Notes under the pieces: generated by a model
Told to the model about the DNA's origin: nothing
What the model saw: the letters and a program-made list of their open reading frames with translations, nothing else
Databases searched by the model: none
Translations under genes and position numbers: made by a program
Assembly: GCA_000091205.1 (NCBI GenBank)
Contig: AP006501.2
Source of the DNA: Cyanidioschyzon merolae
Taxonomy: Eukaryota
Length of the DNA stretch: 64,000 bases
Direction: 5' to 3' (one strand)
Shown here: positions 1,386-52,031 of the stretch, piece after piece
Position numbering within the stretch: position 1 is the stretch's first letter
Layout of the letters: each line of letters begins with the position of its first letter

Positions 1386-3417
1386 AGCGCCCTTTGTTTC
1401 GGTTCAGTTATGGGCCAATTAGAAACCGTCTGAGCGCCCTCTGCTCCAGTCGATCTGAGCAACGCTGGGTCAGACAAAAATGTTTCTAAGCGTTGCAAAT
1501 GGCGTCGATGATCCAGTGCGCTGCGCGTCAGCGCGTGCTGAAGTGCTCGTTATTTGAGGACGAAAGCCATTCTGTGACTAGAGACATCTAAAGCCGTGGA
1601 ATAATAGAATAAAAGACTGAACGCCCGCCCTGTACCTGGCTAGCGATTTTTTGCGAACCCTTCCCAGGTGTACAGCCTGCACACTCGAATTCAAGCAGTG
1701 AGGGCGTAAGGATTACACCGTAGCTTAAGGTTGCGTTGTTTTCCTCTGGGACTTGCAAACACGACGCTCTGCCGCCGGAATTTGTTACGTTACCGAAATC
1801 GCCATTTTTCAGGACGCTTTAGAGCAAGTTTTCGTAAATCAATACATGCCATTATCCAACGCTTACGTTCAAGCCTCTACTTGTCAAATTGGACAGCCAG
1901 GAGTGTGCTCAAATCACCGACTTCCCGGGGTTTCGCTTATTTTGTTGCAAGGATGCTCGTTGGGCACAGCGACTTGCGCCGATGGATCGACGAGAACACG
2001 TAGTAGCCCGCGTCGTCCCTTGGCGACGTGCCCACAAGCTCATGCTGAAAGACCACCGCCCGATTCAGGTCCGATGATCGGTTCCGTTCCGAAGACAAAT
2101 CGTCCCCTATTGTGGACATCAGGGAAGCTCCATTCGAATGAAGCATCACAAGTCCCACGGAATATGCCTTAGAGGCTCCTGTCTGTTCTCTTTGCACGGA
2201 ATACGGTTATGGACTCGAACTTGAGCGATCGTAGCGATCGCTTCCTGTAGAGGACGCGTCGCAGCTTAGCACGAAATGAGTGAACATAAATCCAAATTTC
2301 TCGAACAAATCTCCAGCCTGGGTTTTCCGTCGGCCACTCGTTACACCACGGACAACGTTGCATTCCATACAGGCTCTGTCGAATGGAACATGGTGCGCTT
2401 GCACGTCGAGCGTACGACGTCCGCTCCTAGGGGATCGCCCAGAACAAGCTCGCAAACGTAGCGCACAGCGCGCAACGGAGTCGGGCACCCATGGGGGCAC
2501 TCTGCACCCGTCATGGGCATGTACCGGGTGGTGAGGGGAGCGTTCAGGTACCGTGGGGCGGCCCTTGGAGGAAGAGGAGGATGACGAGGAGCTCGTGTGC
2601 ATCTGAGGGAACGCCTGACCAGTCTCAAGTGTCACCCCTGCAGCGGGTACAGCGCGACCGTATGCCAAGACGATTCCCTTATCGCAAACGACGCGCATGT
2701 CGCAACCGCCGCCTGTGCATGAATTGTGTGGACAGCAGCCGAACACCTCAAGCTGACGCCCTCAGTGATATGGCAAAGCCGTTCTGTGTCTGTCCTGCGA
2801 TCGCACCGGCGCTTTAGGAGCCATCGCTGACGCTCAAGGCGGGCTCGGCGCACGAAAGAACTGGAAAACTGCACGGTGTCTTCGAAGGAAGCCCCGATGA
2901 GTGCAACTTGGAAGGAGGCGTAGCGATTGATGCTCCATCGTATGCTGGTATCAAGCGCACAATCGGGGATTCCCGGTCTGGGCAAACCCTCGATCAGAAA
3001 ACAGCTGGAGGCGGCGATATCGAGGACTGCAACGCTACGATCAATATCATTCAACTGCGTACAACCGCGTTGGACAGACAGGAGAGACCGGTATATGTAA
3101 AGCTGAAGATATGAAAGAGAAAAATGATCAGTAACAAGAAACTTGCAAAGGATGGTGTTGATGATATTGGAATAGGCCTAAACTTAAGAGTCTTTGCCCA
3201 AGTTCAGTGAGTGAATCCGTAATACTCTCATGTGACATGGGTGCGAAGAAGATCGGCCAACGTGCATCAACTGCCCGATGCGCGCCAAAATACGCGCGCG
3301 GACGCTGCTCGAACGCGCCTCGGTCGGCAATTTCCCGCGGCAAGCTTCTTCCCGCCTGGTACTCTCTGCCCTGCGTTGGCGTGTACCCAATATTCACAGA
3401 AGAGCCTTTGTGAAAAC

Positions 3418-6501: not shown

Positions 6502-6832
6502 TGAATCTAGGGTTTAAACTAGCCGCTTTCGTGTTCCTAGGAAAGAGTTTGTAGAAGAGTCCAACCAGCTTGCTCCGATCGTTGCAAGCAACCCGTTGGA
6601 AGCGATCTAGCTGGCGGGTCCAGGCGATTTGGCTTAGCCTGCAGCCTGCCTTTAACAACGATTAAAGGATTTGAGCACAATAAAACCTCAAGTAAAGCAC
6701 GCAAGCCTTTTCACGAAGCCGCTCACGTGGAATAGGAGTTCTGTAACAGTCTTTGCGACGATATGCACTTGCTCGAAGCGGCCGTCGCCGATCGATGGCA
6801 GGCGAGGCCGTCAACCACCCAAACCCGAGCGT

Positions 6833-9020
6833 CTCTAACATAGTCTGCTACCTCTATTATGTTCCACCGCAGGTGCGAGTCCTTTACGGCCTCTTCGCGG
6901 TTTACCGCAGATTCATTCGAAGCGCGTTCATCTTGAAGAAATACAGTATTCAAGGGGAAGGTATGCACGTAAAAGCCGAGGATCCTGGAGGACCGTCATC
7001 CCTGGCTGCCCGAAGAAAACGCAAAAAATCCTCTCATCGCCGATCATCGAGCGAAGACAAGCAAGTTACGAGGAAAAAAACAGAATAGGGGACACAGACG
7101 ATAAAAGGTGTTTGCTAGACGTGACAATGACGAGACTGTTGTGGCGCAGGGGGCGCGAGTACTTGGAATTCTTGCAATGTTGAGCTCCACCAGCGTCAAT
7201 GCACGCAAGGAGTTCGTGAATCGAGACGTGAACGCCGCCATCTATACCAAACGATGTGCGGTGCTGAAGAGGATACCCGAGGCGCTGGCGCGAGCCCGTC
7301 TTGTGAGGCAGCCTCTCAGGCTCGAGGTATACATGCAGAATCTGGAACTGATAGCAGGCGGCCGGTCAGACGAGAGAGTGAGGCGTCTGCGAGTGGGTGT
7401 CTATGTACCTATCATGGTCGTGAACCGCTGCTCGTTGTACCGACTATAAACTTAGAGCAGTGGATTCTGGAACAACTTTTCGAGGGCGCGCTTTTGTTTC
7501 GATTGCTTTTCTCGCAGGTGTTCAACCAAGCAATTGTGTACTTTAGGTTCGGGGGAAAGTCGCGAAACGTTTTGAGCTTTTTATGGCTTGCGTGCGCAAA
7601 CCGCCGTCATTCTGAACTGAAGGCAACGCAATCCGATAAAGTGCATGAATCAGCTGTCTCGTAGTGCCTGTTCCTAGAACTGCGCTCCAAAACGAGAACG
7701 TACCAGACGCCACCTACAAGCCTTGCTCGTTTTCAATCCGTTCCACTCCACAGTTCCGTTCAGAAAAAGCAGAGAAAAAACCACACGATATGAAGATTCT
7801 GTACCGTCGATACCGACGGTAATGAAGAGGCACGGGTGGACGACGCAAAAGCACGTTGCTCCGTGAGACCGTCGTACGTTGAACGAGACGCGCACACTCT
7901 CATACGCACACCCGCGATCGATTACATCATGAAAAGCGAGCGGTTACTACGGGACGGACGAGTGCTCGTCGCTCTCAATGAGACTTCATTCAGAGAAGCG
8001 TGCAGACCTGGACACGGGCGCCCTAACAGGGATCATCGATGTTCGCACACCAGGAACACGCGAGTATTCCGAAAAGATCAGCAGTAGCAGCAGCATGGAA
8101 ATCGTGTGGTCGCCTACTTTTCGCCAAACGGGCGGGATTGCCCAACAGCTCATTCGCGGTCGAGGCAGTCCCCAGGATGCAGAGCTGAAGTGGATGCCCT
8201 GCACGCTTGCTCCGGGGTGCGCCTTAGCGACCATGCGGCACATGCGGACGATATTGGGGCAGGGGCACAGCGAACCGCGCTGGGGCCGCCAACGGTTTCG
8301 GTTGTATAGGCCGAACTGGCGTGCAATCGCCTACGTGGTCAGTCAGTTGGACAAAGCATCGACAGACGTGTCGCATCGTTTGGTGGAGGACGAAGGCGCT
8401 CGACGTATTGCTGCGCGCAAAGCACGTACCCGTGTTCGTTGCGCGAGAGCGCACACCGAGTGCAGGAATCGATGCGGTACGTGCTCCCGTTGATGAGTTC
8501 AAAACGACGTATACGCATCACAAGCATGTGTGCACGCCGAAACGGGTAGAGAAGACGAATGTGAAACGGAACCTGATGCACGACGTGGTGTGCGGGAAGC
8601 GGGGCATCGTCAGGTAGCGACGAGGGTGCAGGTGAGCGGCTGGCAACGGCGTGATTCCCCGAGCAGCCACGCGTGCAAGCACATTCTGCGCGGAGACTTG
8701 GGCGTCTCAACGAGCACCCGGAAGCGTCTCGTGCTTCCGGAGCGTCCATCGGTTTTGCATGAAGCGAGCGCTCGAGGTAGTAATCGGTTCGACCTTCGCG
8801 GCGCCATGGTACTGGAACGCAGAAGGCTTGCGATGAAAAGAATCAGTGGCGGCGAGAGAGGGCTCTGGATTCCCGACTGGAGCTATGCACTGGTACGATA
8901 TGGATCAGCAATCGAGTGAGACTCGTGTACTCTCATATATACGCTGTGATTTGGATTCCCTGGCAGTTGGAGAAAGATCGTGCTGATATACTATCCGATT
9001 TTACTGCGGATATGAAGCGA
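6833..9020. repeat. Inverted-repeat arm A (~2.19 kb), near-identical inverted copy at 24630-26838
   Basis: The six-frame ORFs in 6750-8920 reappear on the opposite strand in 24730-26850: the 129-aa ORFs are identical, the 171-aa ORFs differ at 3 residues, and the 136-aa ORFs at about 4. Boundaries were set by manually aligning the flanks against the reverse complement. No convincing protein-coding content. Confidence 0.85.
7205..7420 (+). repeat. ~200-bp dispersed core repeat, copy 1 of 4 (inside arm A)
   Basis: Shares blocks with 12530-12705 (rc), 26260-26450 (rc) and 28021-28200: gagttcgtgaatcgagacgtgaacg, gtgcggtgctgaag, ctcaggctcgaggtatacatg and gatagcaggcggccgg. About 70% identity among the old copies. 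Confidence 0.7.
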
Positions 9021-12439: not shown

Positions 12440-13893
12440 TCAATAAATAAAAATATATCGTCATTGGAACAAAAAATGTTTGTCGAACAGTGAGAGTAAA
12501 CATATAAACTCAAGCGCAGACGACTTCCAGCCATTTTTGACCGGGCACCTGCTATCGGTTTCAGCTTCTCCTTATACACTTCAAGCCTGAAAGGCAGCTT
12601 CACGAAGTTCTCTGGCGTCAGCTATGCGATTCTCGTCTTCAGCACCGCACATCGTCTGATGTTGATATCGGTTTCGAAGTCTCGGCTCACGATCTCCTTG
12701 CATACATTGCTGCTAGTTAACGTTATTTATGCAAGGGTTCCTTGAACTCGTGCCCTTTGTGCCCCTACAGTCTCGTCATCCTACTGTCGGGCAGACACCT
12801 TGCATCGCACATCTCTCATCGTCATCTTTTCCGTGGTCACTTGCTCCTCATCGCTCGATGGTCGCCAAGGAGAGAATTTTTCGCTTGTTCGTCGAACCCG
12901 CAGGCAAGGGGCCTCCAGGACCCTCCACTTCCATGTCCATAAGTTTCCTTTATACAGTATGGTCTTGAAAATGAATGCACCTCTTTATGAACTCAGGTGA
13001 GAAAATTCCTCAAGCGTGAAGCTCTTGCGTAGGAGAGACGAAATGTGCCCCAGTGTGTCGTCGTGTGCTGAAAGCTTCAGCGATTCGGCCAGCGGAGGGA
13101 TCATTACGTTTCACGATCCAAAACGGTCATTCGAAGACGTTGAATCACGGCAATTACGGAGGGATGAAAAGCTACTGTACCCAGGCAGGATCCGCAAATG
13201 CTCGAAACCAAGTCGAATTGTTAAATACCATGTTGATCAATGGAAGGACGTCGCCAGACGTCAGGAGTAAAGTCTTTAATGATTCCACAAACTTGGTGGC
13301 GCTGTTGTATGAGCCTTCTTCACTTGCGAAACTGAGGCCATCAAATGAATCCATTCCAGCTTGAACTGATGAAGATATCATCGTTCTCTTCGAGTACCTT
13401 CATGCATGCATCGGGCCCCCAGTCAGCGAATACCCATCCATGCCCCGATCGTTTTTCCGAAGAAGGTTTCATCGATTTGAAAAACATACCAATGTCTCTG
13501 TGCTTCATATCGATCGCAGCGTTCCGAGAATTCTGTCGTTGCGATTTCGGTGGAAGCTGACGTTCATTGAACTTTGACTTTCTTGTAAGCGTATCCTAGT
13601 GTTTTCAAGACTACACGAACAAACTGCTGAGTAACCGAGACGCCCGTGGAGACTTTCATCGTCCTTTTTGCTTTCCGTAAGGCGATTAACGGGACGTTTT
13701 CTACCACCGACAGCAGGCAATCTCCGAGAATATTGGTTTTTTGCCTGTAGTGTACATGCTTCTCTCCTTCCAGTGTTCCTGAACCATCTGAAACTGTGGT
13801 ATGACTGACCTGCAGAAGGAATGCAGTATTCCGTGTATTGCTCAGTAAAGAACATATACTGGGCATTTCGTCTACATTCTGTGGGGTATCTTG
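12440..13893. repeat. Repeat element B (~1.45 kb), near-identical inverted copy at 26880-28270; possible decayed Tc1/mariner-like element
   Basis: ORFs 13016-13902 recur inverted at 26912-27788: the 103-aa ORFs are identical, and the 116-aa and 93-aa ORFs differ at 1 residue. Minus-strand peptides resemble Tc1/mariner transposase pieces. The HTH-like segment KVSTGVSVTQQFVRVVLKTLGYAYKKV matches ..KVSISTVKRVL....L.G...KKP, and the C-terminal RRCAVLK segment matches RRCQAVID. Size fits Tc1/mariner. I could not find clean terminal inverted repeats or TA duplications. Confidence 0.6.
12530..12705 (-). repeat. ~200-bp dispersed core repeat, copy 2 of 4 (terminal part of element B)
   Basis: The reverse complement aligns with 7205-7420 and 28021-28200. 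Blocks gtgcggtgctgaagacgag and gatagcaggtgcccgg are conserved. Confidence 0.7.
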
Positions 13894-13908
13894 CCGGGCC
13901 ACTTCGAT
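13894..13908. repeat. Target-site duplication (left) of the LINE
   Basis: Exact 15-mer ccgggccacttcgat, also present at 18982-18996, immediately abutting the element termini. Confidence 0.8.
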
Positions 13909-14935
13909 TTTTCTTTAATCACTGACGAAATGTTTACCTAAGCCAGCGTTCTCCGATTATGCGCATTTTTCGTTTCTTAATTTTTTTGTGTTTTTTGTCA
14001 GTGTGAGGTGGGATATCCATCAACCCCCTACCTCCATGTTACATTACCTATACTTCGTCTCGGATATTCTGGTCGTTTCATGCGTCCTATCGGGTGCCGA
14101 GCCTGCCGAAAGCGACAGCAATAGCGCCTATAGCGCCGGTGCAGTCGCTGCACGGAGACAGAACGGCGTTGCCGTACCACAAAGAGCGTCTGCTCGAGGT
14201 GTGCTTCACCCGACGTAGAATCGGGTCTCGTCGTCAGTTTGTGCTCGGATAGTCTGCAAATGCAGGCTTGCCTTCGCTGCAATACACGCTGTAGAAACTT
14301 GGCTGTTAGGATATATCCTGAGAGCCGCCTCTCTCCTTCGTGATCATGCATGGAATGCGTTGTTGTCGGTTGGCAATGCGGGTTTGTGCTTGACACCCAT
14401 CACAGTGGGTAGGCACAAAGAGCACTAAACCCGTGTGCTCATCCGATTCGTTGGACCTGCTGCCTAGAAGGTAGAGTTTGAGTTTATTGGCCACTCATGA
14501 GCGCTGAGGCTCCGTTAGCGCACCATCAGTTGCCAGTGCTACACTCAGAGTGAGTGTCCGGCCTTCGACAATCACGGTGATGTCCAGCTGCTGCTGTCCT
14601 CCAAGGAACTCGCTGCGCTCCTGCTTCGAGCGCGGGCACTGTAAGCTTAAATATGTCAGCGTCTCGGGGATTTCGTCTCGATAGCAGGTACAGTGTGACT
14701 CCCAGTGCGGTTCCAGTGTTCCCGTACGGAGTAGAGCCGGTGCTGGTAGCCAGAAGCCACCAACGCGGATTTTGGCGAGCCACTGGGTACCGCGAGCAAG
14801 TCCCGGGAATTCCAGCGCCTCCCACCAGTACTTGCTTGTGTATGCTAGGTTGTAGTTCCGGTATAGAGTCAAGCCGGCGTTACTGGCGCGACTGGTACCG
14901 TGTCTACCTTCCCATATTGGCGTTCGGACCGTTCG

Positions 14936-17202
14936 CTAGAGGCGGCGGGAGCCTTGTACATTTCTGGGGAACGATTGGAGCGCATTTTCGCGTAAGAGGC
15001 GCTTTAGCCAAATCTGCGCTGATTTCATCCAAGTTTTCTTGCGGTGCGTTGGGGTCTGCATGAAAATCCGACTCAAAGGGGTGCGCATAGTGGGCCCTTT
15101 GGCCCGTATACATGCCCAGCAGCCTGCTGCTATCGCTTCTATCGAGGCTATTTGGAGTTCAAGTCCGAGTGCCAGCGGGTTGGTTGCTCTGCGCTGCATT
15201 GAGCATCCAACAACAACAACGAGTCGCATTGCCCTGTTGGCAGCTGTCTGCAGACGCGAGGCATTTGTGTGCTTCATGCCGCACCATTCAGCACCCCAGG
15301 TCGAAGGCTGGATGATACACATCCTTAGTGCCCTCGTACGGATTGCTAAGGGGATAGAGGGGTCGGATGGGAATGGGCGTGCGATCGCTGTACGTCTATG
15401 CATCTTGGCGATCATCTCGTCGACGTGAGCCTTTTCGTCGAGCGTCGGCGTGAGACAGACCCCCAGGTAGCGATATTTTTCCACGATCGGAATTTCCTGA
15501 TTCTGCAACCGCCATGAGCGATTGCGAATGCTCTGTGAGTCTCCATGGATGACCATGGCGCCGCACTTCAATGCTCCTATGTTCATAACCCAGCGATCGG
15601 CCCAGGCGCTGACTTGTTGCATGCTAGCCGCAAGCGTTTCCGGGGCGGGTGCCAACAGCACGACGTCGTCGGCAAGTAGAAGGCCTGCGAGGCGGTTTCT
15701 ATGTGAGGGCTCCTCATCGGGCATCTCCACAGTCTATCCACGGCACCTCAAGTCCGTATTGTCTGCGGTTGTTCAGCAGATCGTTGATGAAGATGTTGAA
15801 AAGGCGCGGGGATGCGCGGTCGCCCTGTCGCAGTCCACGGCGGATTCTTATCGAAGGGGTTCTTGAGCAGTCGCCCAGTCGGGTGCACATCCACGAGTCT
15901 GCATAGAGCGCACGGAAGAACGCTAAGCACTTTCCGGAGACTCCGGCACGTTCCATCTTCAGAAATGGAGCCTCGTGCGGGACCGTTTCAAAGGCCTTTT
16001 GAAAGTCGATGAAGCATACGTAAGTTGGTTGTTGGCAGCTAATGGAGCGACGTTGCACCACTTCAATGAAGGTCAGGTCATGGCTCATGTACTCCTCGCG
16101 GCTCCGGAATCCAGCCTGTTCTGGGGCGAGGAATTTGCGTTCCTCGAGGCCCCTCTGAGTCCGGTTCGTGAGGTTGGCGCAAAGTAGCTTCATGATTTAC
16201 GGGATGAGGCGCATAGTCCGGTAGATATTCATGTCTGTGGGGTTCGGAGTCCTTTTTGAGGATCGGTACGACCTCGGCAGTCCTCCATACATCTGGGATG
16301 TACGCTTCTTCGAACATGCGTTGGATGAGCTCCAGAAGGCGCTTGCCTAAGATTGTGTCAGGTTCATCTGGTATCGATAGTGTCCCTGTTGTCTCGTCTT
16401 TTGGGGTCGCCAGTTTCATCCACTCCGTAGGGATACCGTCAAAGCCAGGTGTTTTGCGGTTGCATGACCTTAAGAGGGTCCGGACAGATTCAGGCCAGAA
16501 GATTGGGTCGTTCCATACCGGTACCGGGTCGAGGCGCGGTAGTTCTGCAGCATATTGGTGCCAATAGATTGGGTCTTGGCAGTGCCCAGTTGCGTCTTCA
16601 TGCAGCTCTGTCCCGTGGTCTATCCAGGCCTCATTCACTGAGGCACTCTCCGTCCTCAGCGCTTCCTTATAAACAATTGGTGTGAGCCCCAGGCACTTTC
16701 TTGGTGGGTCCAGTCTCGATCGAATGGAGCGCCATGTCTCATCTTCGTTGGTGCTCTCCAGCATAGATTTCGCCAGGGAGGCGATTCTGCGATTTCGATC
16801 CTCCTGTTTGTCTTCTCTGGAAAGTTTCTTCTTTCTTTTGATAGCTTCCTCATGTTGTGCCTGTAGCGCCGTTAGGACTGCCTTCGCTTCCTTGTCTCCG
16901 GCGTTGGCGCGTATGGCGGTGCGGTTGACGATCTTGTTGAGTCGGTGGCATCCATCAATCTGTGCTTTTTTACGTCGTTTCAGGTACTGAGGTTTGCAAC
17001 TGTTGCGTTCTGGTGCAAGCAGTCCCAGTTCTCTGGCAATCTTCTGATTCCCATCTACATACTCGCGTGCCAATTGGTCAAAAGATTTGTATGCACGGCT
17101 TTTCGGATCTTCAACGCTGTGAGCAGGTGCCTGGGTTTGGCGACGGCTTTCTTGAGTTCCAGCTGGGGTGCCCTCTCGGGGGATACCTTGTGATGAGCTC
17201 AT
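14936..17202 (-). pseudogene. LINE ORF2 reverse-transcriptase segments (three overlapping frames)
   Basis: RT motifs are spread over three ORFs (16078-17202, 15714-16193, 14936-15730) whose ends overlap in different frames. This is consistent with frameshift mutations or assembly indels. Confidence 0.8.
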
Positions 17203-17365
17203 TTGGGAGTTCTTTTTTCTATTCTTCTGTTTTTTTCTTGCTGGTCTTTTTCTTCTTCGGGCTCTTTCCTGAGCTGCTTTCTCTGGTTATTCTTCTGGTA
17301 CGTGGATCATGATGCCAGCGTGTCTATCCTTCCGTATCGCCTTGAGTCTCTTTTCCTATTGTAGA

Positions 17366-18148
17366 TCACTCTATTGTTGTCTCTTCTTCGTTAATGTACT
17401 GATAATTCGTTATCTTTTCTCGGAAGGCTGCAAGTGACTTGTTGGTTAGTATCCGGGCTTGGTATGTTGAGGGTGCAATTGCTGGTAACCCTCGCTGTGC
17501 GCTCTGAGTCGTGTCGGCTACTGGTTCAGCATTTTGGTTCCTCGGGCGCGGGTACCATCTGCAGTGGATGGGCCAGTGATCTGAGGCATCCCAAATTCGG
17601 TCAACGGCGGTATGTTGGAGTGCCGGGTCGCATCGGTCGCTTAAGATGTGGTCTATCGATGAGCGAAGCAAACGTTGGTCGGTAATGCGGTGCCACGTCA
17701 GGGGTGAACCTCTACACGGATTCACCGACAGCAATCCGCATCTCATTCGTTGTAGGTGTTGCCTAAGGTGGCCCGCCGACATGTTAAAATCTCCCATAAT
17801 TATCATCGGTTCCTCATTCCGTGTGCGGCGTTTCAATCGCTGGATGTTGGAGGCCAACTCTTTGAGTGCCTGTCGGCGCATCTCACAGGCGTGTGGTATA
17901 TAAATGGAGCCCACAAGCCAAGGTGCAGGCTGACCTGGAATTGTAACACTCACAAAGACCATCCATGGAGACGGGTTGCCGACCGCATAGCAAGTGAGGC
18001 GTCGATCGACAGTGAGCGCAACACCACGTGTGCGTAACGAAGTTGGCTTGTCCGTAGGGTCTACGTACGTTGGTTCAACCGTGTTGTAGCCTGGGATATG
18101 CAGACGATAATACGTCTTTGTGTTCTCTGAGTGTAGTGTCTCCTGCAA
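17366..18148 (-). pseudogene. LINE ORF2 endonuclease-domain segment (frame-separated from the RT segments)
   Basis: APE-like endonuclease motifs (see the LINE feature). Stop codons and frame changes separate it from the RT segment. Confidence 0.8.
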
Positions 18149-18981
18149 TGCCAGGATATGGACGTCTCAGCGTTCCAGGAAGTACCTTACGTCGTCTAGA
18201 ATCGAGGCTACCCCCAAAAATTTTCCATGATGCGAAACCTATCGAGTCGTAGCGCGTAAGGGAATAGGAATAGCGCTGCGGTACTCGAGAGATACGTTGT
18301 CGATTGAGATGCACCCTCCACGGCGTGTGAGAACGCACATGCCACCATTGCCTCCTGCATTCCAGTCGTTCAGTGAGTGTCTGCCGCAGCGCTAGCGTAG
18401 AATCAGATGTACATTAGTCAAAGTCGATTCGAATGCGACCTTTATCTTGCCGGACGCGTGAAGCTCCCCTCAATCACTGGGGATACGCTATGAACCACCC
18501 TGTCAGCGGCTTCGTATCCGCTCCCCAAATACATAGGCGGGCAAGTCGCTTATTCCAGCTTCGATCGCGAACATACTGCCAGCCGTCTTCCAAAGTATCC
18601 GCCGAAATTGTTCCCAAAGTTGAGGTAGGTACCCAATGTAGGAGGTAAACCGGAGCCCGAGTTTAAGGATCGATCCAAGATTTGCGCCCGAACCTGCAGC
18701 GTTGATTCGGGAGGGGCGGATAACTGCTCAGAATTTTCGTCAGCTTTTTCTGCTGCTGCTGCCTCCGCCCCTCCGTTCGTTGCGGTCAAGGTCCCTGGCG
18801 TGGGCTTCCTTCGCCGTCGCCCAAGCACCCCGTGTTTACCCACTTTCAGAGCTTCTCCGGAAAAACTAGACCTCTTAAGCAGGCATGGTGTGTGGGTCTT
18901 TAAGATAGTTGTTCTTTAATAAATAGTTTGCGACTAGTTTGTTTTGTTGTTTTTTATGTACGTTACGATTTTTTTTTCATT

Positions 18982-18996
18982 CCGGGCCACTTCGAT
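18982..18996. repeat. Target-site duplication (right) of the LINE
   Basis: Exact 15-mer ccgggccacttcgat, matching 13894-13908. Confidence 0.8.
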
Positions 18997-19189
18997 CTCA
19001 AGCTATTCACCGCATCGAGGTTGAAACAAAATTCAGCTGGAAAAATATAATGCTGTAGGTGTTGCAGCCTTTTTGGCGTCCCGTCTTACGCAGCAGACTC
19101 TAGGTTGTCATAGGCTTTCGGAGGCACTCGCAGAACGAGCGTCATCTCGGTAGACAAATCAGTCTCAACTCCTCAATTTCTAGACGTGC

Positions 19190-20041
19190 ATGCTTCTGAC
19201 AAACAGCAGACAGCTGGGCTTCGTGGGGCCCGTCCACGGAAGGGGCTCACCAACGCGCTCGCTTGTCGGGCGTTTCCGGAGAGTAGGACGAACGCGCACT
19301 CCCCTTGAACGACTTGTTGCGACTCGAGAATGGGAGCGAGTGACAAATAGTCGCCAGCACCTTGTAGCTGTAGTTGCATTGGTGGCGCTTTTGTCAGGTT
19401 TTCCCGAGTGGACTGGGGGTGCAGCGTTCACGTCCACTTCGACACTTGCTAGTCAGGAGCGCGTAGAGGGCGGAGTCGTGTCGCCCGAGCGCTGGGAACT
19501 CCTTCCTGCACTAGAAGGCAAAGACTATGGGAAACCCCGTATGCGATACTCGGACTTTGTAACGTTACCTGATGGAGTACAGTATCGAGACGTGCGTATT
19601 GGCGACACGGAGATCACACCCCGCCCAGGTGACCGGGTGGTCCTCAACTGGAGTGGGTACACAATTGGTTACTATGGGCGAATTTTCGAGGCTAAAAATC
19701 GAGTACAGGGTGGCGCTTTTGGTGACGACCGCGAATATTCTCGCTACGTCCTTGGCCGAGGGGAACTCGTACCTGCTCTCGAAGAGACTCTGCTGACAAT
19801 GCATCCGGGAGGTGTTAGACAGGTGATCGTTCCGCCCGAGCGCGGGTATCCTCTAGACGGCTCGGACTGGAACCACGATCGTGTCGGACCAAAACCACGG
19901 ACCTTCAGCGGCATGCGTGCTCTCAATTTTGTGCTTGAGAACAAGGGCCTCGTAGACAAGACGCTACTGTTTAACATAGAGTTGATCCGAATTGATCGAC
20001 CTGGCGAAAACGGCTTCGAAACTGTTGGACGACGGCAATGA
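19190..20041 (+). CDS. FKBP-type peptidyl-prolyl cis-trans isomerase, probably organelle (thylakoid-lumen-type) targeted
   Basis: C-terminal ~150 aa form an FKBP domain (GDRVVLNWSGYTIGYYGRIFEAK, YVLGRGELVPALEETLLTMHPGGVRQVIVPPERGYP). The N-terminal ~110 aa are Arg/Ser-rich followed by a hydrophobic stretch (LVAVVALVALLSG), resembling a bipartite targeting sequence. The exact start is uncertain. Confidence 0.8.
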   Translation: MLLTNSRQLGFVGPVHGRGSPTRSLVGRFRRVGRTRTPLERLVATREWERVTNSRQHLVAVVALVALLSGFPEWTGGAAFTSTSTLASQERVEGGVVSPERWELLPALEGKDYGKPRMRYSDFVTLPDGVQYRDVRIGDTEITPRPGDRVVLNWSGYTIGYYGRIFEAKNRVQGGAFGDDREYSRYVLGRGELVPALEETLLTMHPGGVRQVIVPPERGYPLDGSDWNHDRVGPKPRTFSGMRALNFVLENKGLVDKTLLFNIELIRIDRPGENGFETVGRRQ

Positions 20042-24629: not shown

Positions 24630-26838
24630 AACCGCTCGTATATCCGCAGCAAAATCGGATAGTATATCAGCACGATCTTTCTCCAACTGCCAGGGAATCC
24701 AAATCACAGCGTATATATGAGGGTGCAAAAGTCTCACTCGATTGCTGATCCATATCGTACCAGTGCATAGCTCCAGTCGGGAATCCAGAGCCCTCTCTCG
24801 CCGCCACTGATTCTTTTCATCGCAAGCCTTCTGCGTTCCAGTACCATGGCGCCGCGAAGGTCGAACCGATTACTACCTCGAGCGCTCGCTTCATGCAAAA
24901 CCGATGGACGCTCCGGAAGCACGAGACGTTTCCGGGTGCTCGTTGAGACGCCCAAGTCTCCGCGCAGAATGTGCTTGCACGCGTGGCTGCTCGGGGAATC
25001 ACGCCGTTGCCAGCCGCTCACCTGCACCCTCGTCGCTACCTGACGATGCCCCGCTTCCCGCACACCACGTCGTGCATCAGGTTCCGTTTCACATTCATCT
25101 TCTCTACCCGTTTCAGCGTGCACACATTCTTGTGATGCGTATACGTCGTTTTGAACTCATCAACGGGAGCACGTACTGCATCGATTCCTGCACTCGGTGT
25201 GCGCTCTCGCGCAACGAACACGGGTACGTGCTTTGCGCGCAGCAATACGTCGAGCGCCTTCGTCCTCCACCAAACGATGCGACACGTCTGTCGATGCTTT
25301 GTCCAACTGACTGACCACGTAGGCGATTGCACGCCAGTTCGACCTATACAACCGAAACCGTTGGCGGCCCCAGCGCGGTTCGCTGTGCCCCTGCCCCAAG
25401 ATCGTCCGCATGTGCCGCATGGTCGCTAAGGCGCACCCCGGAGCAAGCGTGCAGGGCATCCACTTCAGCTCTGCATCCTGGGGACTGCCTCGACCGCGAA
25501 TGAGCTGTTGGGCAATCCCGCCCGTTTGGCGAAAAGTAGGCGACCACACGATTTCCATGCTGCTGCTACTGCTGATCCTTTCGGAATACTCGCGTGTTCC
25601 TGGTGTGCGAACATCGATGATCCCTGTTAGGGCGCCCGTGTCCAGGTCTGCACGCTTCTCTGAATGAAGTCTCATTGAGAGCGACGAGCACTCGTCCGTC
25701 CCGTAGTAACCGCTCGCTTTTCATGATGTAATCGATCGCGGGTGTGCGTATGAGAGTGTGCGCGTCTCGTTCAACGTACGACGGTCTCACGGAGCAACGT
25801 GCTTTTGCGTCGTCCACCCGTGCCTCTTCATTACCGTCGGTATCGACGGTACAGAATCTTCATATCGTGTGGTTTTTTCTCTGCTTTTTCTGAACGGAAC
25901 TGTGGAGTGGAACGGATTGAAAACGAGCAAGGCTTGTAGGTGGCGTCTGGTACGTTCTCGTTTTGGAGCGCAGTTCTAGGAACAGGCACTACGAGACAGC
26001 TGATTCATGCACTTTATCGGATTGCGTTGCCTTCAGTTAAGAATGACGGCGGTTTGCGCAAGCAAGCCATAAAAAGCTCAAAACGTTTCGCGACTTTCCC
26101 CCGAATCTATAGTACACAATTGCTTGGTTGAACACCTGCGAGAAAAGCAATCGAAACAAAAGCGCGCCCTCGAACAGTTGTTCCAGAATCCACTGCTCTA
26201 AGTTTATAGTCGGTACAACGAGCAGCGGTTCACGACCATGATAGGTACATAGACACCCACTCGCAGACGCCTCACTCTCTCGTCTGACCGGCCGCCTGCT
26301 ATCAGTTCCAGATTCTGCATGTATACCTCGAGCCTGAGAGGCTGCCTCACAAGACGGGCTCGCGCCAGCGCCTCGGGTATCCTCTTCAGCACCGCACATC
26401 GTTTGGTATAGATGGCGGCGTTCACGTCTCGATTCACGAACTCCTTGCGTGCATTGACGCTGGTGGAGCTCAACATTGCAAGAATTCCAAGTACTCGCGC
26501 CCCCTGCGCCACAACAGTCTCGTCATTGTCACGTCTAGCAAACACCTTTTATCGTCTGTGTCCCCTATTCTTCTTTTTTTCCTCGTAACTTGCTTGTCTT
26601 CGCTCGATGATCGGCGATGAGAGGATTTTTTGCGTTTTCTTCGGGCAGCCAGGGATGACGGTCCTCCAGGATCCTCGGCTTTTACGTGCATACCTTCCCC
26701 TTGAATACTGTATTTCTTCAAGATGAACGCGCTTCGAATGAATCTGCGGTAAACCGCGAAGAGGCCGTAAAGGACTCGCACCTGCGGTGGAACATAATAG
26801 AGGTAGCAGACTGTTAGAGACACTCGGGACTGTGCCAG
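24630..26838. repeat. Inverted-repeat arm A' (inverted copy of 6833-9020)
   Basis: See arm A. The A' end at 26838 lies only ~40 bp from the start of B' at 26880. Confidence 0.85.
26260..26450 (-). repeat. ~200-bp dispersed core repeat, copy 3 of 4 (inside arm A')
   Basis: Reverse complement of the 7205-7420 core, as part of the A/A' duplication. Confidence 0.7.
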
Positions 26839-26879
26839 ATCATATGCTTTCAATCCAATTTCGTTTCAGCCTCTGCTGC

Positions 26880-28270
26880 AGCGTATAGCAAGATATCGAA
26901 ATCACTATTGAATGAGCCCTGTAGATCGTAGTCGAATTGCCTGTAGGATATATTCTTTACTGAGCAATACACGGAATACTGCATTCCTTCTGCAGGTCAG
27001 TCATACCACAGTTTCAGATGGTTCAGGAACACTGGAAGGAGAGAAGCATGTACACTACAGGCAAAAACCAATATTCTCGGAGATTGCCTGCTGTCGGTGG
27101 TAGAAAACGTCCCGTTAATCGCCTTACGGAAAGCAAAAAGGACGATGAAAGTCTCCACGGGCGTCTCGGTTACTCAGCAGTTTGTTCGTGTAGTCTTGAA
27201 AACACTGGGATACGCTTACAAGAAAGTCAAAGTTCAATGAACGTCAGCTTCCACCGAAATCGCAACGACAGAATTCTCGGAACGCTGCGATCGATATGAA
27301 GCACAGAGACATTGGTATGTTTTTCAAATCGATGAAACCTTCTTCGGAAAAACGATCGGGGCATGGATGGGTATTCGCTGACTGGGGGCCCGATGCATGC
27401 ATGAAGGTACTCGAAGAGAACGATGATATCTTCATCAGTTCAAGCTGGAATGGATTCATTTGATGGCCTCAGTTTCGCAAGTGAAGAAGGCTCATACAAC
27501 AGCGCCACCAAGTTTGTGGAATCATTAAAGACTTTACTCCTGACGTCTGGCGACGTCCTTCCATTGATCAACATGGTATTTAACAATTCGACTTGGTTTC
27601 GAGCATTTGCGGATCCTGCCTGGGTACAGTAGCTTTTCATCCCTCCGTAATTGCCGTGATTCAACGTCTTCGAATGACCGTTTTGGATCGTGAAACGTAA
27701 TGATCCCTCCGCTGGCCGAATCGCTGAAGCTTTCAGCACACGACGACACACTGGGGCACATTTCGTCTCTCCTACGCAAGAGCTTCACGCTTGAGGAATT
27801 TTCTCACCTGAGTTCATAAAGAATTGTGCTCATTTGAAAATATGTAAAACCCAGGAGACGAGCTGGGGGTGTACAGTTTTGAGGTGGAAATGGAAAAAGA
27901 GCCAGCGGAGCGTTTTAGCGATAGCGAAGCATGGGGAGCTGACGGAGCACCGAATGTCACGTAGGGCACGAGTTCGAGGACTACTTTCTCTGGTGATTTC
28001 CTCCAGCGGCAATTTACGCACTGAGTTCGTGAGCCGAAACTTCAACGTCGCTATCAATATCAGGAGATATGCGGTGCTGAAGACGAGCCCCCAAGACCTG
28101 ACGAAATCTACCTTGGTATTGTAGCCTCTCAGGCTCGAAGTCTACATGGAAAAAGTGACACCATTATCAGGAAGCCGATCACGTTAAGGCGGAGAGGTGT
28201 TTGTGCATAGGCATTAATTTAACGTAAACGGCGGGAATTTTTTTGTTCCATTGAACGTGTATGCGTGTGC
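26880..28270. repeat. Repeat element B' (inverted copy of 12440-13893)
   Basis: See element B. Terminal homology: tttttgttccattgaacg (about 28245) matches tttttgttccaatgacg in the reverse complement of about 12460. Confidence 0.6.
28021..28200 (+). repeat. ~200-bp dispersed core repeat, copy 4 of 4 (terminal part of element B')
   Basis: Aligns with 7205-7420 (gagttcgtgagccgaaac..gcggtgctgaagacgag..ctcaggctcgaagtctacatgg). Confidence 0.7.
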
Positions 28271-51540: not shown

Positions 51541-51760
51541 AACTCAGGCCAGCAGCCCTGTCGAGAGCCAAACGTCAGGTCTTCCCAAGCACAGCCTGTC
51601 CCAGAGGTAGCGTCCTCCAAAGGAGAACAACAGTTGGATTCGAGCTCCGTCCGAGACCGATTAACTCTCTAGATTGTACATACCGCTGCGAACGGCGCTA
51701 TCATGGATTCCGTCACGCGCGTCTGGGCCGCGATGGAAGCGAATTTCGCGAGGGCGCGAT

Positions 51761-52031
51761 TTTTCTTTAATCATTGACGAAATGTTTACCTGGGCCAGCG
51801 TTCTCCGATTATGCGCATTTTTCTTTTCTTACTTTTTTTGTGTTATTTTTCAGTGCGCGGTGAAGTATCCACCAAATGCCCTACCTCCAAGTTACATCAC
51901 CTATACTTATTCTCGGATATTCTGGTCGTTTCATACGTCCTATCGTGTGCCGAGCCTGCGGCATGCGACCGCAATGGCGCCAATAGCGCCGGTGCAGTCG
52001 CTGCACGGAGACAGAACGGCGTTGGCGAACT
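51761..52031 (-). mobile_element. 5'-truncated copy (271 bp) of the 3' end of the LINE at 13909-18981
   Basis: Collinear with 13909-14190 in the same orientation, at about 85-90% identity (ttttctttaatcattgacgaaatgtttacc…ggtgcagtcgctgcacggagacagaacggcgtt). Flanked by an exact 13-bp direct repeat gcgagggcgcgat at 51748-51760 and 52032-52044. Confidence 0.75.

What the first reader, a model, noticed from the sequence alone, without database searches (positions are those of the whole stretch)
13894..18996. Near-full-length LINE with exact 15-bp target-site duplications but a shattered ORF2
The minus strand carries APE endonuclease, RT (PGFDGIP, QAGFRSRE, FIDFQKAF, ADDVVLLA) and zf-RVT (CTCYRDEIPETLTYLSLQCP) modules in the right order. 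They are bounded by the exact direct repeat ccgggccacttcgat at 13894-13908 and 18982-18996. The element ends in AAAGAAAA rather than a long poly-A. Intact TSDs imply a recent insertion. Yet ORF2 is split into at least 4 frames (junction overlaps at 15714-15730 and 16078-16193, and the endonuclease is separated by stops). Either the element was inactivated very soon after insertion or the assembly has indels here. A possible ORF1 remnant lies at 18550-18843 (Gly/Arg-rich).
Basis: seen in the sequence. Interest (0 to 1): 0.6.

Follow-up and report, generated by a model that had tools for sequence, protein, structure and literature searches.

The report
Dead LINE retroelement in Cyanidioschyzon merolae

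Summary
Window 13909-18981 (minus strand) is a 5,073-bp non-LTR retrotransposon with endonuclease (APE), reverse transcriptase and a degenerate zinc knuckle in that order. It ends in a short A-rich tail and sits between exact 15-bp target-site duplications. The window is chromosome 19 of C. merolae 10D, a gap-free finished genome. The element's 159-aa RT ORF is GenBank BAM82741.1, "retroelement, dead", so it is already known.

- Independent metagenome assemblies of the same locus match with zero indels, so the frameshifts are real.
- The copy is not demonstrably recent. It carries 3.8% private substitutions, typical of the family (2.4-5.8%). At that divergence an intact 15-bp TSD pair still has probability about 0.3.

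Four of its coding lesions are also found in independent copies about 10% diverged, in incompatible combinations. They were therefore inherited from defective templates or exchanged between copies. An endonuclease-less derivative occurs in three distinct sequence lineages, and about 290-bp tail-only units at 11 or more loci. Mobilisation in trans therefore looks routine in this family. Insertion sites tend to start with ATCG. The clade is unresolved: the closest intact relatives are unnamed environmental LINEs at about 31% identity. This is an ordinary finding of low interest.

The parts
13894..13908 (.). 3' target-site duplication (CCGGGCCACTTCGAT; on the element's sense strand ATCGAAGTGGCCCGG)
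   Evidence: Exact 15-mer with only two copies in the window. Its boundaries cannot be extended.
13909..18981 (-). Body of the LINE (5,073 bp), sense on the minus strand: 5' region, APE, linker, RT, CCHC, 3' UTR, A-rich tail
   Evidence: Pfam APE and RT. Colinear tblastn to intact relatives P0001-P0003. No other LINE coding sequence in the window.
18982..18996 (.). 5' target-site duplication
13909..13916 (-). Short A-rich tail AAAGAAAA
   Evidence: The whole family has 5-9 nt A-runs.
13909..14199 (-). Terminal ~290-nt 3' module. The same unit occurs alone at 11 or more other loci, always starting at this nucleotide.
   Evidence: No Rfam family, tRNA or structure signal.
13909..14494 (-). 3' UTR (586 nt) after the stop at 14495-14497
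   Evidence: Internally deleted derivatives rejoin just after this stop, at sense 4516.
14633..14692 (-). Degenerate zinc knuckle CTCYRDEIPETLTYLSLQCP. The second Cys and the His are both Tyr.
   Evidence: Intact relatives have CPxC-x9-H-x4-C. Some sister copies keep TGT (Cys), and L015 keeps CAT (His).
14936..14938 (-). In-frame TAG stop
   Evidence: AAG in 10 other copies; TAG shared only with L076.
14939..15733 (-). RT C-terminal segment (ADDVVLLA onward), third frame
15722..15723 (-). +1 frameshift (GGAGATGCCCG versus GGAGA-ACCCG)
   Evidence: Absent in L018, L080 and L079, where the RT ORF reads through for 424 aa. Shared with L125.
15714..16193 (-). RT core ORF, identical to GenBank BAM82741.1 'retroelement, dead'
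   Evidence: Exact look-up. RVT_1 E=4e-12.
16197..16199 (-). In-frame TAA stop (LIP*IMKLL)
   Evidence: TCA (Ser) in L018, L125, L035 and BAM82712.1. TAA shared with L080.
16235..16251 (-). Frameshift between ILKK and NPTDMNIYR (RT motif 1 region)
   Evidence: Shared with L018 and L125. L080 is in frame through a (CA)n +8 insertion.
16081..17286 (-). Lys-rich linker plus RT N-terminal segment (PGFDGIP)
17366..17368 (-). TGA stop at the end of the APE frame
   Evidence: GGA in same-locus contigs L002 and L007; GAC in other copies.
17369..18237 (-). APE endonuclease. The N-terminal SWN motif reads SWK; there is a TGA at 18167-18169 and a +1 in the G-run at 18211-18215.
   Evidence: Pfam. L018 and L004 lack the extra G and read ASWNICGVASILDD in frame. 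APE coding sequence was found only in contigs of this locus.
18553..18915 (-). Unproven.
   Evidence: No Pfam hit. Interrupted in most other copies.
18966..18981 (-). Private 5' leader AATGAAAAAAAAATCG, which resembles the family's 3' terminus
   Evidence: Found only at this locus. Other copies start at sense ~42-64.
26850..27045 (-). Paralogous empty site in another copy of the host repeat
   Evidence: Colinear alignment across the junction: score 19 against a null of 9.0 +/- 1.25, maximum 15.

Best explanation
Window 13909-18981 (minus strand) is a dead, near-full-length copy of the APE-type LINE family of Cyanidioschyzon merolae. GenBank already annotates it as 'retroelement, dead'.

How it got there (inferred from anatomy): it inserted by target-primed reverse transcription. 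The endonuclease nicked the + strand after ...CACTTCGAT. The exposed 3' end primed cDNA synthesis on the element RNA's short A-rich 3' end. A staggered second-strand break produced the 15-bp duplication. The site lies in a repeat 194 bp upstream of the FKBP/immunophilin gene.

Why it is broken (shown): the coding damage is real, comprising at least 4 frameshifts, at least 4 stops, two lost zinc ligands and SWN changed to SWK.

Why that fits intact TSDs (part shown, part inferred): the copy is of ordinary age for the family (3.8% private divergence), and several lesions are family polymorphisms shared with independent copies. They were most likely carried in from an already-defective RNA template mobilised in trans, and/or moved between copies by gene conversion or template switching. 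A few lesions are private and arose in place: the G-run +1 and the TGA at 17366.
For: Identity:
- 10 of 10 flanking ORFs are exact C. merolae 10D chromosome 19 proteins.
- ORF 15714-16193 is BAM82741.1 'retroelement, dead'.
- Nozaki 2007 counts 26 non-LTR-like elements, only 3 with an intact RT ORF.

Structure:
- Pfam APE and RT.
- Colinear matches to intact APE-RT-CCHC relatives.

TPRT:
- Exact 15-bp TSD and a paralogous empty site.
- A 5'-truncated copy B with its own 13-bp TSD.
- TSDs of 11-21 bp in other copies.
- Short A-run tails. The base after the tail is T in about 19 of 20 junctions, and ATCG starts about half of the targets.

Lesions are real:
- Zero indels in independent assemblies L013, L014, L002 and L005-L008.

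Lesions are shared:
- Frameshift ~16250 with L018 and L125; TAA with L080; +1 at 15723 with L125; TAG with L076. In each case copy-specific variants lie within about 30 nt.

Trans-mobilisation in the family:
- The identical 774-bp in-frame APE deletion occurs in three lineages.
- Other deletion derivatives and tail-only units exist.

Age:
- 3.8% private divergence against 2.4-5.8% for other copies, giving P(TSD intact) = 0.31.
Against: - Dead-on-arrival cannot be separated from later import of lesions by gene conversion. The lesions are not nested: all four combinations of TAA and +1 exist.
- Differences between the reference and environmental contigs of this same locus come in tight clusters, which suggests ongoing exchange or mosaic assemblies.
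- Metagenome contigs of repeats proved unreliable. L012, L015 and L016 were chimeras and had to be dropped. L050 is mosaic.
- 3.8% neutral decay could by itself produce several stops and frameshifts.
- No autonomous source element of this family was found.
- The other copies of the 10D genome itself could not be read directly.
- Clade assignment is unresolved.
Confidence: 0.85

Rival explanations
1. The frameshifts are assembly or sequencing indels, and the real element has an intact ORF2.
For: One frameshift lies in a T5G5 homopolymer at 18211-18220. The linker frame change lies in A-rich runs.
Against: The genome is finished and gap-free. Independent short-read assemblies from several samples reproduce the whole element with zero indels. 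At least four in-frame stop codons are substitutions, not indels. The genome's own annotators called it dead.
Confidence: 0.01
2. The copy was functional when it inserted recently and was then inactivated very quickly in place.
For: Perfect 15-bp TSDs. It is the only copy that keeps an endonuclease domain. Some lesions are private: the G-run +1, and the TGA at 17366, which is still GGA in some same-locus contigs.
Against: Its private divergence of 3.8% is average for the family, not low. Four lesions are shared with independent copies about 10% diverged. No empty allele appeared among 10 environmental contigs. An intact TSD pair is expected about 30% of the time even at 3.8%.
Confidence: 0.08
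3. The copy was autonomous at insertion, decayed neutrally over a long time, and acquired the shared lesions afterwards by ectopic gene conversion from other dead copies.
For: Substitutions between the reference and environmental versions of this locus are tightly clustered: 24 in 18287-18474, 23 in 16571-16805, and 12 in 17155-17215. The four-combination violation for TAA and +1 indicates recombination. L050, an A-locus contig, carries the L018-type sequence at 15723. 3.8% divergence is enough for several disabling hits.
Against: The clusters and mosaics could be assembly path-switching between paralogues, as shown for L012 and L015. The family clearly mobilises defective RNAs, so a defective template is at least as simple an explanation.
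Confidence: 0.3
4. The APE-to-RT frame change in the Lys-rich linker (about 17219-17290) is not a lesion but the family's native layout: two ORFs, or a +1 recoding or reinitiation site.
For: No length difference in this stretch between A, L018 and the ~80% diverged L004 copy. The APE frame ends at TAG 17219-21, and an ATG opens the RT frame 16 nt downstream at 17202.
Against: The closest intact relatives encode APE and RT in one continuous ORF. The shift needed is +1, and no recognised slippery motif is evident. All sampled copies may simply descend from one already-broken ancestor. The only APE-bearing copy is itself dead.
Confidence: 0.07
5. The 15-mer flanks are a chance or pre-existing repeat rather than a target-site duplication.
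For: The element sits in a repeat-rich neighbourhood.
Against: There are only two copies in 64 kb. They abut the A-rich tail and the 5' end exactly. The paralogous host-repeat copy has the target once and continues into the sequence homologous to the far flank. Other family members show the same architecture, with TSDs of 11-21 bp.
Confidence: 0.02

Closest known systems
C. merolae 10D class I elements (Nozaki et al. 2007, PMC1955436); GenBank BAM82741.1 'retroelement, dead' and BAM82712.1 'retroelement'
   Same: It is one of them. The 159-aa RT ORF is identical to BAM82741.1. The paper reports 26 non-LTR-like elements, only 3 with an intact RT ORF.
   Different: The published description gives only counts and BLASTX affinity. 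The TSDs, target preference, lesion map, deletion derivatives and tail-only units described here were not found in the two papers read. I could not check Repbase or Dfam.
L1/Tx1-type APE LINEs (human LINE-1 ORF2p, PDB 8SXT/8C8J/8UW3)
   Same: The order N-terminal APE, RT, C-terminal Cys/His knuckle. TPRT with variable-length TSDs, frequent 5' truncation and an A-rich 3' end. L1 ORF2p is the best solved-structure match (E=8e-13).
   Different: R2 scores almost as well (2e-11), so this does not place the clade. There is no recognisable ORF1. The tail is only 5-9 A's. Targets tend to start with ATCG rather than TT/AAAA. A conserved 3' module shared with short non-autonomous units suggests 3'-end-specific template recognition, unlike L1.
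Unnamed environmental single-ORF LINEs (P0001-P0003 and P0158-P0166)
   Same: They are the closest intact relatives, about 31% identical over 60-67% of ORF2, with the same APE-RT-CPxC..H..C layout and an element size of about 4.5-5.5 kb.
   Different: They are intact. At least L001 has a 20-nt poly-A tail. Their hosts are unknown. They have an N-terminal extension of 90-200 aa that is not detectable here.
Non-autonomous LINE derivatives (HAL1-like deletion derivatives; SINEs that share a partner LINE's 3' tail, as with eel UnaSINE1/UnaL2; the comparison rests on my own knowledge)
   Same: The family includes an APE-less derivative in three distinct sequence lineages, 5'+3' fusion derivatives and ~290-nt tail-only units with a fixed 5' start. 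All imply mobilisation in trans through the shared 3' end.
   Different: The tail-only units have no tRNA, 5S or 7SL-type head and match no Rfam family. Whether they are separately transcribed is unknown.

Membership tests
APE-type non-LTR retrotransposon (LINE) | Apurinic/apyrimidinic-type endonuclease domain N-terminal to the RT | tested here: met
   Pfam Exo_endo_phos E=5e-9 and Exo_endo_phos_2 E=2.7e-6 at 17366-18148, upstream of the RT on the sense strand.
APE-type non-LTR retrotransposon (LINE) | Reverse transcriptase domain with LINE-type motifs | tested here: met
   RVT_1 E=4e-12. Motifs PGFDGIP, QAGFR, FIDFQKAF and ADD present. Colinear with intact APE+RT proteins.
APE-type non-LTR retrotransposon (LINE) | Variable-length target-site duplications, an A-rich 3' end and 5'-truncated copies (the TPRT signature) | tested here: met
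   TSD of 15 bp here, 13 bp for copy B, 11-21 bp elsewhere. A-run tails. Many truncated copies.
APE-type non-LTR retrotransposon (LINE) | No long terminal or terminal inverted repeats | tested here: met
   BLAST of the element against the window gives only the self-hit plus 3'-end matches to copies B and C.
C. merolae annotated retroelements | Sequence identity to an annotated 10D retroelement gene | tested here: met
   ORF 15714-16193 is exactly BAM82741.1 / XP_005538777.1, 'retroelement, dead'.
L1 clade | RT-domain phylogeny placing it within L1 | tested here: inconclusive
   Human L1 ORF2p is the best PDB hit, but R2 is within two orders of magnitude. No clade-labelled reference set such as Repbase or RTclass1 was available.
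L1 clade | ORF1 encoding an RNA-binding protein upstream of ORF2 | tested here: inconclusive
   A 121-codon open frame exists only at this locus. It has no Pfam hit and is interrupted in other copies. The intact relatives appear to have a single ORF.
L1 clade | Long poly-A tail and a TT/AAAA-type target | tested here: not met
   Tails are 5-9 nt. Targets begin with AT(C/G)(G/C), and about half begin with ATCG.
Pfam zf-RVT (PF13966) | Score above the family's gathering threshold | tested here: not met
   No hit at E<=5 for the C-terminal 146 aa. The intact relatives score only E=0.2. Two zinc ligands are substituted in this copy.
Site-specific LINEs (Tx1 / R1 / R2-like) | All copies inserted at one defined sequence in a repeated target | tested here: not met
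   About 20 distinct junctions share only the first 2-4 target bases. Their flanks are otherwise unrelated.

The most novel reading that the evidence does not exclude
The element itself is known, but the family behind it may have features not yet described for C. merolae, one of the most transposon-poor free-living eukaryotes.
- A conserved 3' module that also exists as discrete ~290-nt tail-only retroposons with a fixed 5' start.
- A target or priming preference for ATCG. The private 5' leader AATGAAAAAAAAATCG hints that the template RNA itself ends in ...A(n)UCG.
- Spread of endonuclease-less derivatives.
- Disabling mutations shared between copies in a reticulate pattern, which points to gene conversion or template switching.
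- This locus may be the last copy that still carries an endonuclease, so the family may have no autonomous member left.
Probability: 0.35. Interest if true: 0.3.

Novelty: already known. Interest (0 to 1): 0.12.

Why it matters
It matters little beyond good bookkeeping. The genome's authors already counted and labelled the element.

The useful outcome is methodological. An intact 15-bp TSD is a weak clock: at 3.8% divergence it survives about 30% of the time. Broken ORFs next to perfect TSDs are also what one expects when defective LINE RNAs are mobilised in trans, or when copies exchange sequence.

For C. merolae specialists, three family-level details could refine the repeat annotation of this model genome, if they hold up on the finished sequence: the ATCG target bias, the tail-only units, and the APE-less derivative seen in three lineages. 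They also bear on whether any retroelement in it is still autonomous.

Tried and rejected
- Shared lesions in L012, L015 and L016. I first read these as proof of dead-on-arrival. Identity profiles then showed that L012 is 100% identical to A for 2.2 kb between the flanks of another locus (seen un-chimeric in L054), and that L015 and L016 are 100% A-like down to ~15550. All three were discarded and the table was rebuilt from uniformly diverged copies. The simple nested hierarchy of lesions disappeared and a reticulate pattern replaced it.
- Orthologous empty site. None was found; all 10 contigs carrying the FKBP flank are filled. The single metagenome scan went on the 3'-end motif rather than an empty-site junction.
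- Position look-ups. The NCBI proteins BAM82741.1 and BAM82712.1 are not indexed.
- Clade assignment. The PDB sequence search does not discriminate. The endonuclease alone has no PDB hit. The relatives of the intact homologue P0001 are unnamed environmental proteins. One literature query failed on term length; the others found no clade assignment.
- zf-RVT. No Pfam match.
- ORF1. No family match and weak conservation.
- 3' module as a SINE with an RNA-gene head. No Rfam family, no tRNA, folding z = -0.47.
- Identity of the host repeat. There are only weak IS630/Tc1-type hits (E about 0.004 and 0.04) for the 'transposase' ORF family, and no hit for the ORFs with the TnpB/Fanzor-like NRDVNAAI motif. 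The link to the Fanzor1 element CMe-1A of Bao & Jurka 2013 remains a lead.
- L018-L020. The LINE there is flanked by a perfect inverted copy of its own flank rather than a TSD. I treated this as a probable assembly fold-back and did not use it.

Full report
**1. What is at the coordinates**

The 15-mer CCGGGCCACTTCGAT occurs exactly twice in the window, at 13894-13908 and 18982-18996. Shuffled sequence gives only 0.12 expected matches even when 2 mismatches are allowed. The repeat cannot be extended on either side.

Between the two copies, on the minus strand, lie these features:
- An endonuclease/exonuclease/phosphatase domain (17366-18148, Pfam E=5e-9).
- A reverse-transcriptase core (15714-16193, E=4e-12).
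- The C-terminal part of the RT (14936-15730, E=0.002).

Three intact relatives align colinearly with the element, but in four successive reading-frame segments. The sense strand ends in ...GATTAAAGAAAA directly against the TSD.

**2. Where the window comes from**

All ten long flanking ORFs I tested are exact matches to proteins of Cyanidioschyzon merolae strain 10D on a 1,282,939-bp record, which is chromosome 19 (chromosome lengths from PMC1955436). That paper describes a telomere-to-telomere, gap-free sequence. It reports only 26 class I elements, all closest to non-LTR retrotransposons, and only three have an intact RT ORF.

The 159-aa ORF at 15714-16193 is exactly GenBank BAM82741.1, named "retroelement, dead". 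Its 90% cluster also contains BAM82712.1, "retroelement", from the same chromosome. The object is therefore already annotated.

**3. Are the frameshifts real?**

Yes. Metagenome contigs that carry the neighbouring FKBP gene are colinear with the window through the element at about 99% identity:
- L002 and L005-L008 cover 16410-19196 with substitutions only and no indels.
- L013 and L014 cover 18902 to 13726 and 18902 to 14135 with zero gaps.

The damage also includes in-frame stops, which are substitutions rather than indels: TGA 18167-9, TGA 17366-8, TAA 16197-9 and TAG 14936-8. In addition:
- The first endonuclease motif reads SWK where sister copies read SWN.
- Two zinc ligands of the C-terminal knuckle are Tyr. 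Intact relatives have CPxC-x9-H-x4-C, while this copy has CTCY...Y...C.

The assembly-error explanation is refuted.

**4. Is the TSD genuine?**

Yes, on three grounds.
- The inverted paralogous copy of the host repeat near 27045-26850 aligns colinearly with "left flank + one TSD copy + right flank". The post-element flank scores 19 against a shuffled null of 9.0 +/- 1.25, maximum 15. This serves as a paralogous empty site.
- A second copy in the window (B, 51761-52031, 89% identical over 274 bp) is 5'-truncated and has its own perfect 13-bp TSD.
- Other copies recovered from metagenomes have TSDs of 11, 15, 16 and 21 bp.

No orthologous empty site was found. All ten environmental contigs that reach the site are filled.

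**5. The family**

Of these, 94 truly resemble the element's 3' region. The data show four things.

- Junctions. About 20 distinct 3' junctions have A-runs of only 5-9 nt. The next base is T in nearly all of them. Counting the last A of the run, the target reads ATCG in about half; the rest read ATGC, ATCC, ATGG and so on. In copies A and B the ATCG is also present in the 5' TSD copy, so it belonged to the target.
- An endonuclease-less derivative. An identical, in-frame 774-bp deletion that removes the endonuclease occurs in three distinct lineages: L018-20; L054, L138 and L004; and L125.
- Other derivatives. Some copies join the first ~700 nt to the last ~570 nt.
- Tail-only units. At least 11 loci carry a ~290-nt unit that starts at exactly the same nucleotide (sense 4798, window 14199), with unrelated upstream sequence each time. 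It matches no Rfam family, has no tRNA-like part and shows no unusual folding.

Endonuclease-coding sequence was found only in contigs of this very locus. The family therefore seems to mobilise defective RNAs in trans routinely, probably through the shared 3' end. That last step is inference.

**6. Dead on arrival, or decayed in place?**

My first lesion table leaned on L012, L015 and L016. Identity profiles showed these contigs are assembly chimeras containing A's own sequence, so I dropped them.

Using only uniformly diverged copies (86-92% identical to A), each RT-region lesion of A turns up in at least one independent copy, and copy-specific variants lie within about 30 nt each time:

| Lesion | Also present in | Absent from |
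|---|---|---|
| Frameshift ~16250 | L018, L125 | L080 (in frame through a +8 (CA)n insertion) |
| TAA 16197-9 | L080 | L018, L125, L035 |
| +1 at 15723 | L125 | L018, L080, L079 |
| TAG 14936-8 | L076 | ten other copies |

The combinations are mutually incompatible. For TAA and +1, all four combinations exist. The history is therefore reticulate, which points to gene conversion, RT template switching or recurrent mutation.

Consistent with exchange between copies, the differences between the reference and environmental versions of this locus fall in tight clusters, for example 24 substitutions in 18287-18474. Path-switching by the assembler is an alternative cause.

Some lesions are private to this locus:
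- The +1 in the G-run at 18211-18215.
- The TGA at 17366-8, which is still GGA in contigs L002 and L007.
- The TGA at 18167-9 has no comparator, because the other copies lack the endonuclease.

**7. Age**

At sites where four or more independent copies agree, A differs at 96 of 2537 positions (3.8%). That sits within the range of the other copies, 2.4-5.8%. At this divergence the chance that both 15-bp TSD copies stay identical is 0.31.

Intact TSDs are therefore not evidence of recency. A divergence of 3.8% is also enough to account for several disabling hits.

**8. ORF1 and the 5' end**

It has no Pfam match and is interrupted in most other copies. Its third-position excess of substitutions is mild and the counts are not independent. 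I regard ORF1 as unproven.

The intact relatives appear to be single-ORF elements with an N-terminal extension.

Other copies begin at sense ~42-64. Only A has the leader AATGAAAAAAAAATCG..., which looks like the family's own 3' terminus. It may come from a template jump at the end of reverse transcription. That is inference only.

**9. Comparison with known families**

The architecture and insertion signature are those of an APE-type LINE. Human L1 ORF2p is the best solved-structure match (E=8e-13), but R2 is close behind (2e-11), so the clade is not settled. The endonuclease alone finds nothing.

The closest intact relatives, about 31% identical, belong to a diverse group of unnamed environmental LINEs. 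At least one has a true poly-A tail, and their hosts are unknown.

Features that differ from L1 are the very short tail, the ATCG-type target and the conserved 3' module shared with short non-autonomous units. The family is not site-specific in the Tx1 or R1 sense.

**10. Verdict**

This is a genuine, previously annotated, dead LINE copy. The inference that it is recent, and both proposed explanations for the broken ORF, are not supported. Interest is low. The family-level details could be worth a short follow-up on the finished genome.

Noticed in passing
window 51748-52044: A second, 5'-truncated copy of the same LINE (body 51761-52031, minus strand, 89% identical to A's 3' end). It has its own perfect 13-bp TSD, GCGAGGGCGCGAT, at 51748-51760 and 52032-52044, which also begins with ATCG on the sense strand.
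   Followed up: yes
window ~2743-3005 (+): A third, more diverged (77%) copy of only the last ~290 nt of the LINE, with no detectable TSD. It belongs to a set of 11 or more loci (e.g. L039, L115, L058, L048, L055, L063, L038) that all start at the same nucleotide (A-sense 4798) with unrelated upstream sequence. This looks like a discrete tail-only, SINE-like unit.
   Followed up: partly
window 6824-9013 / 24640-26828 and 12969-13875 / 26928-27835: Two large, nearly identical inverted duplications (98.95% and 98.5%) bracket the LINE, the FKBP gene and the geranylgeranyl reductase gene. A ~480-bp repeat family is also present at 6924-7406, 12500-12978, 26247-26730, 27964-28181 and 52107-52237 (69-72% identical). 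The LINE sits 19 bp from the end of one duplicated block.
   Followed up: partly
window 7108-7449 (+), 26204-26545 (-), 27834-28124 (+), 13564-13902 (-): Short ORFs in these repeats contain a TnpB/Fanzor-like motif (FVNRDVNAAIY; FVSRNFNVAINI). The ORF abutting the LINE's 3' TSD clusters with proteins that JGI names 'transposase'. Profile searches gave only weak IS630/Tc1-type hits (E about 0.004 to 0.04) and nothing for the Fanzor-like ORFs. Bao & Jurka 2013 report ~150 copies of a Fanzor1 element (CMe-1A) in this genome, so these may be its remnants.
   Followed up: partly
window 18287-18474, 16571-16805, 17155-17215: Differences between the 10D reference and environmental contigs of the same locus are concentrated in short patches of 10-13% divergence, while the surrounding sequence is identical. 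The cause is either ectopic gene conversion between LINE copies or assemblers switching between paralogues.
   Followed up: partly
window 18966-18981 (-): Directly after the 5' TSD the element starts with AATGAAAAAAAAATCG. This 16-mer matches the family's 3' terminus (…CAATGAAAAAAAATCG) and is absent from the 5' ends of other copies. It may be a template-jump product, and it hints that the RNA ends in A(n)UCG.
   Followed up: partly
window ~17219-17290 (-): The change of frame between endonuclease and RT in the Lys-rich linker shows no length difference between A, the 92% copy L018 and the ~80% copy L004. It is either a very old shared lesion or a native two-frame layout.
   Followed up: no
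L018 6278-6322 and 10586-10630 (also L019, L020): The endonuclease-less copy is flanked by a perfect inverted repeat of its own flank (…CACCGAGCGCGAT | LINE | ATCGCGCTCGGTG…) instead of a direct TSD, and all three contigs stop 448 bp downstream. This is probably an assembly fold-back, but a real palindromic target is not excluded.
   Followed up: no
L003 2586-3268; L011 1-413; L004 1-533: Several FKBP-locus contigs leave the reference inside the LINE at 18219-18390 and continue into another copy. L003 joins an inverted 88.6% copy of the LINE's 5' region next to a GFAT-type (GATase/SIS) gene. These are likely chimeric assemblies at repeats.
   Followed up: partly
L001; proteins P0001-P0003, P0158-P0166: A diverse group of intact single-ORF APE-RT-CCHC LINEs (1190-1401 aa) on ~4-5.5 kb environmental contigs. 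L001 has a 20-nt poly-A tail. Their hosts are unknown, and one member is binned in a Limnohabitans MAG, presumably wrongly. They are the closest intact relatives of the C. merolae family, at about 31% identity.
   Followed up: partly
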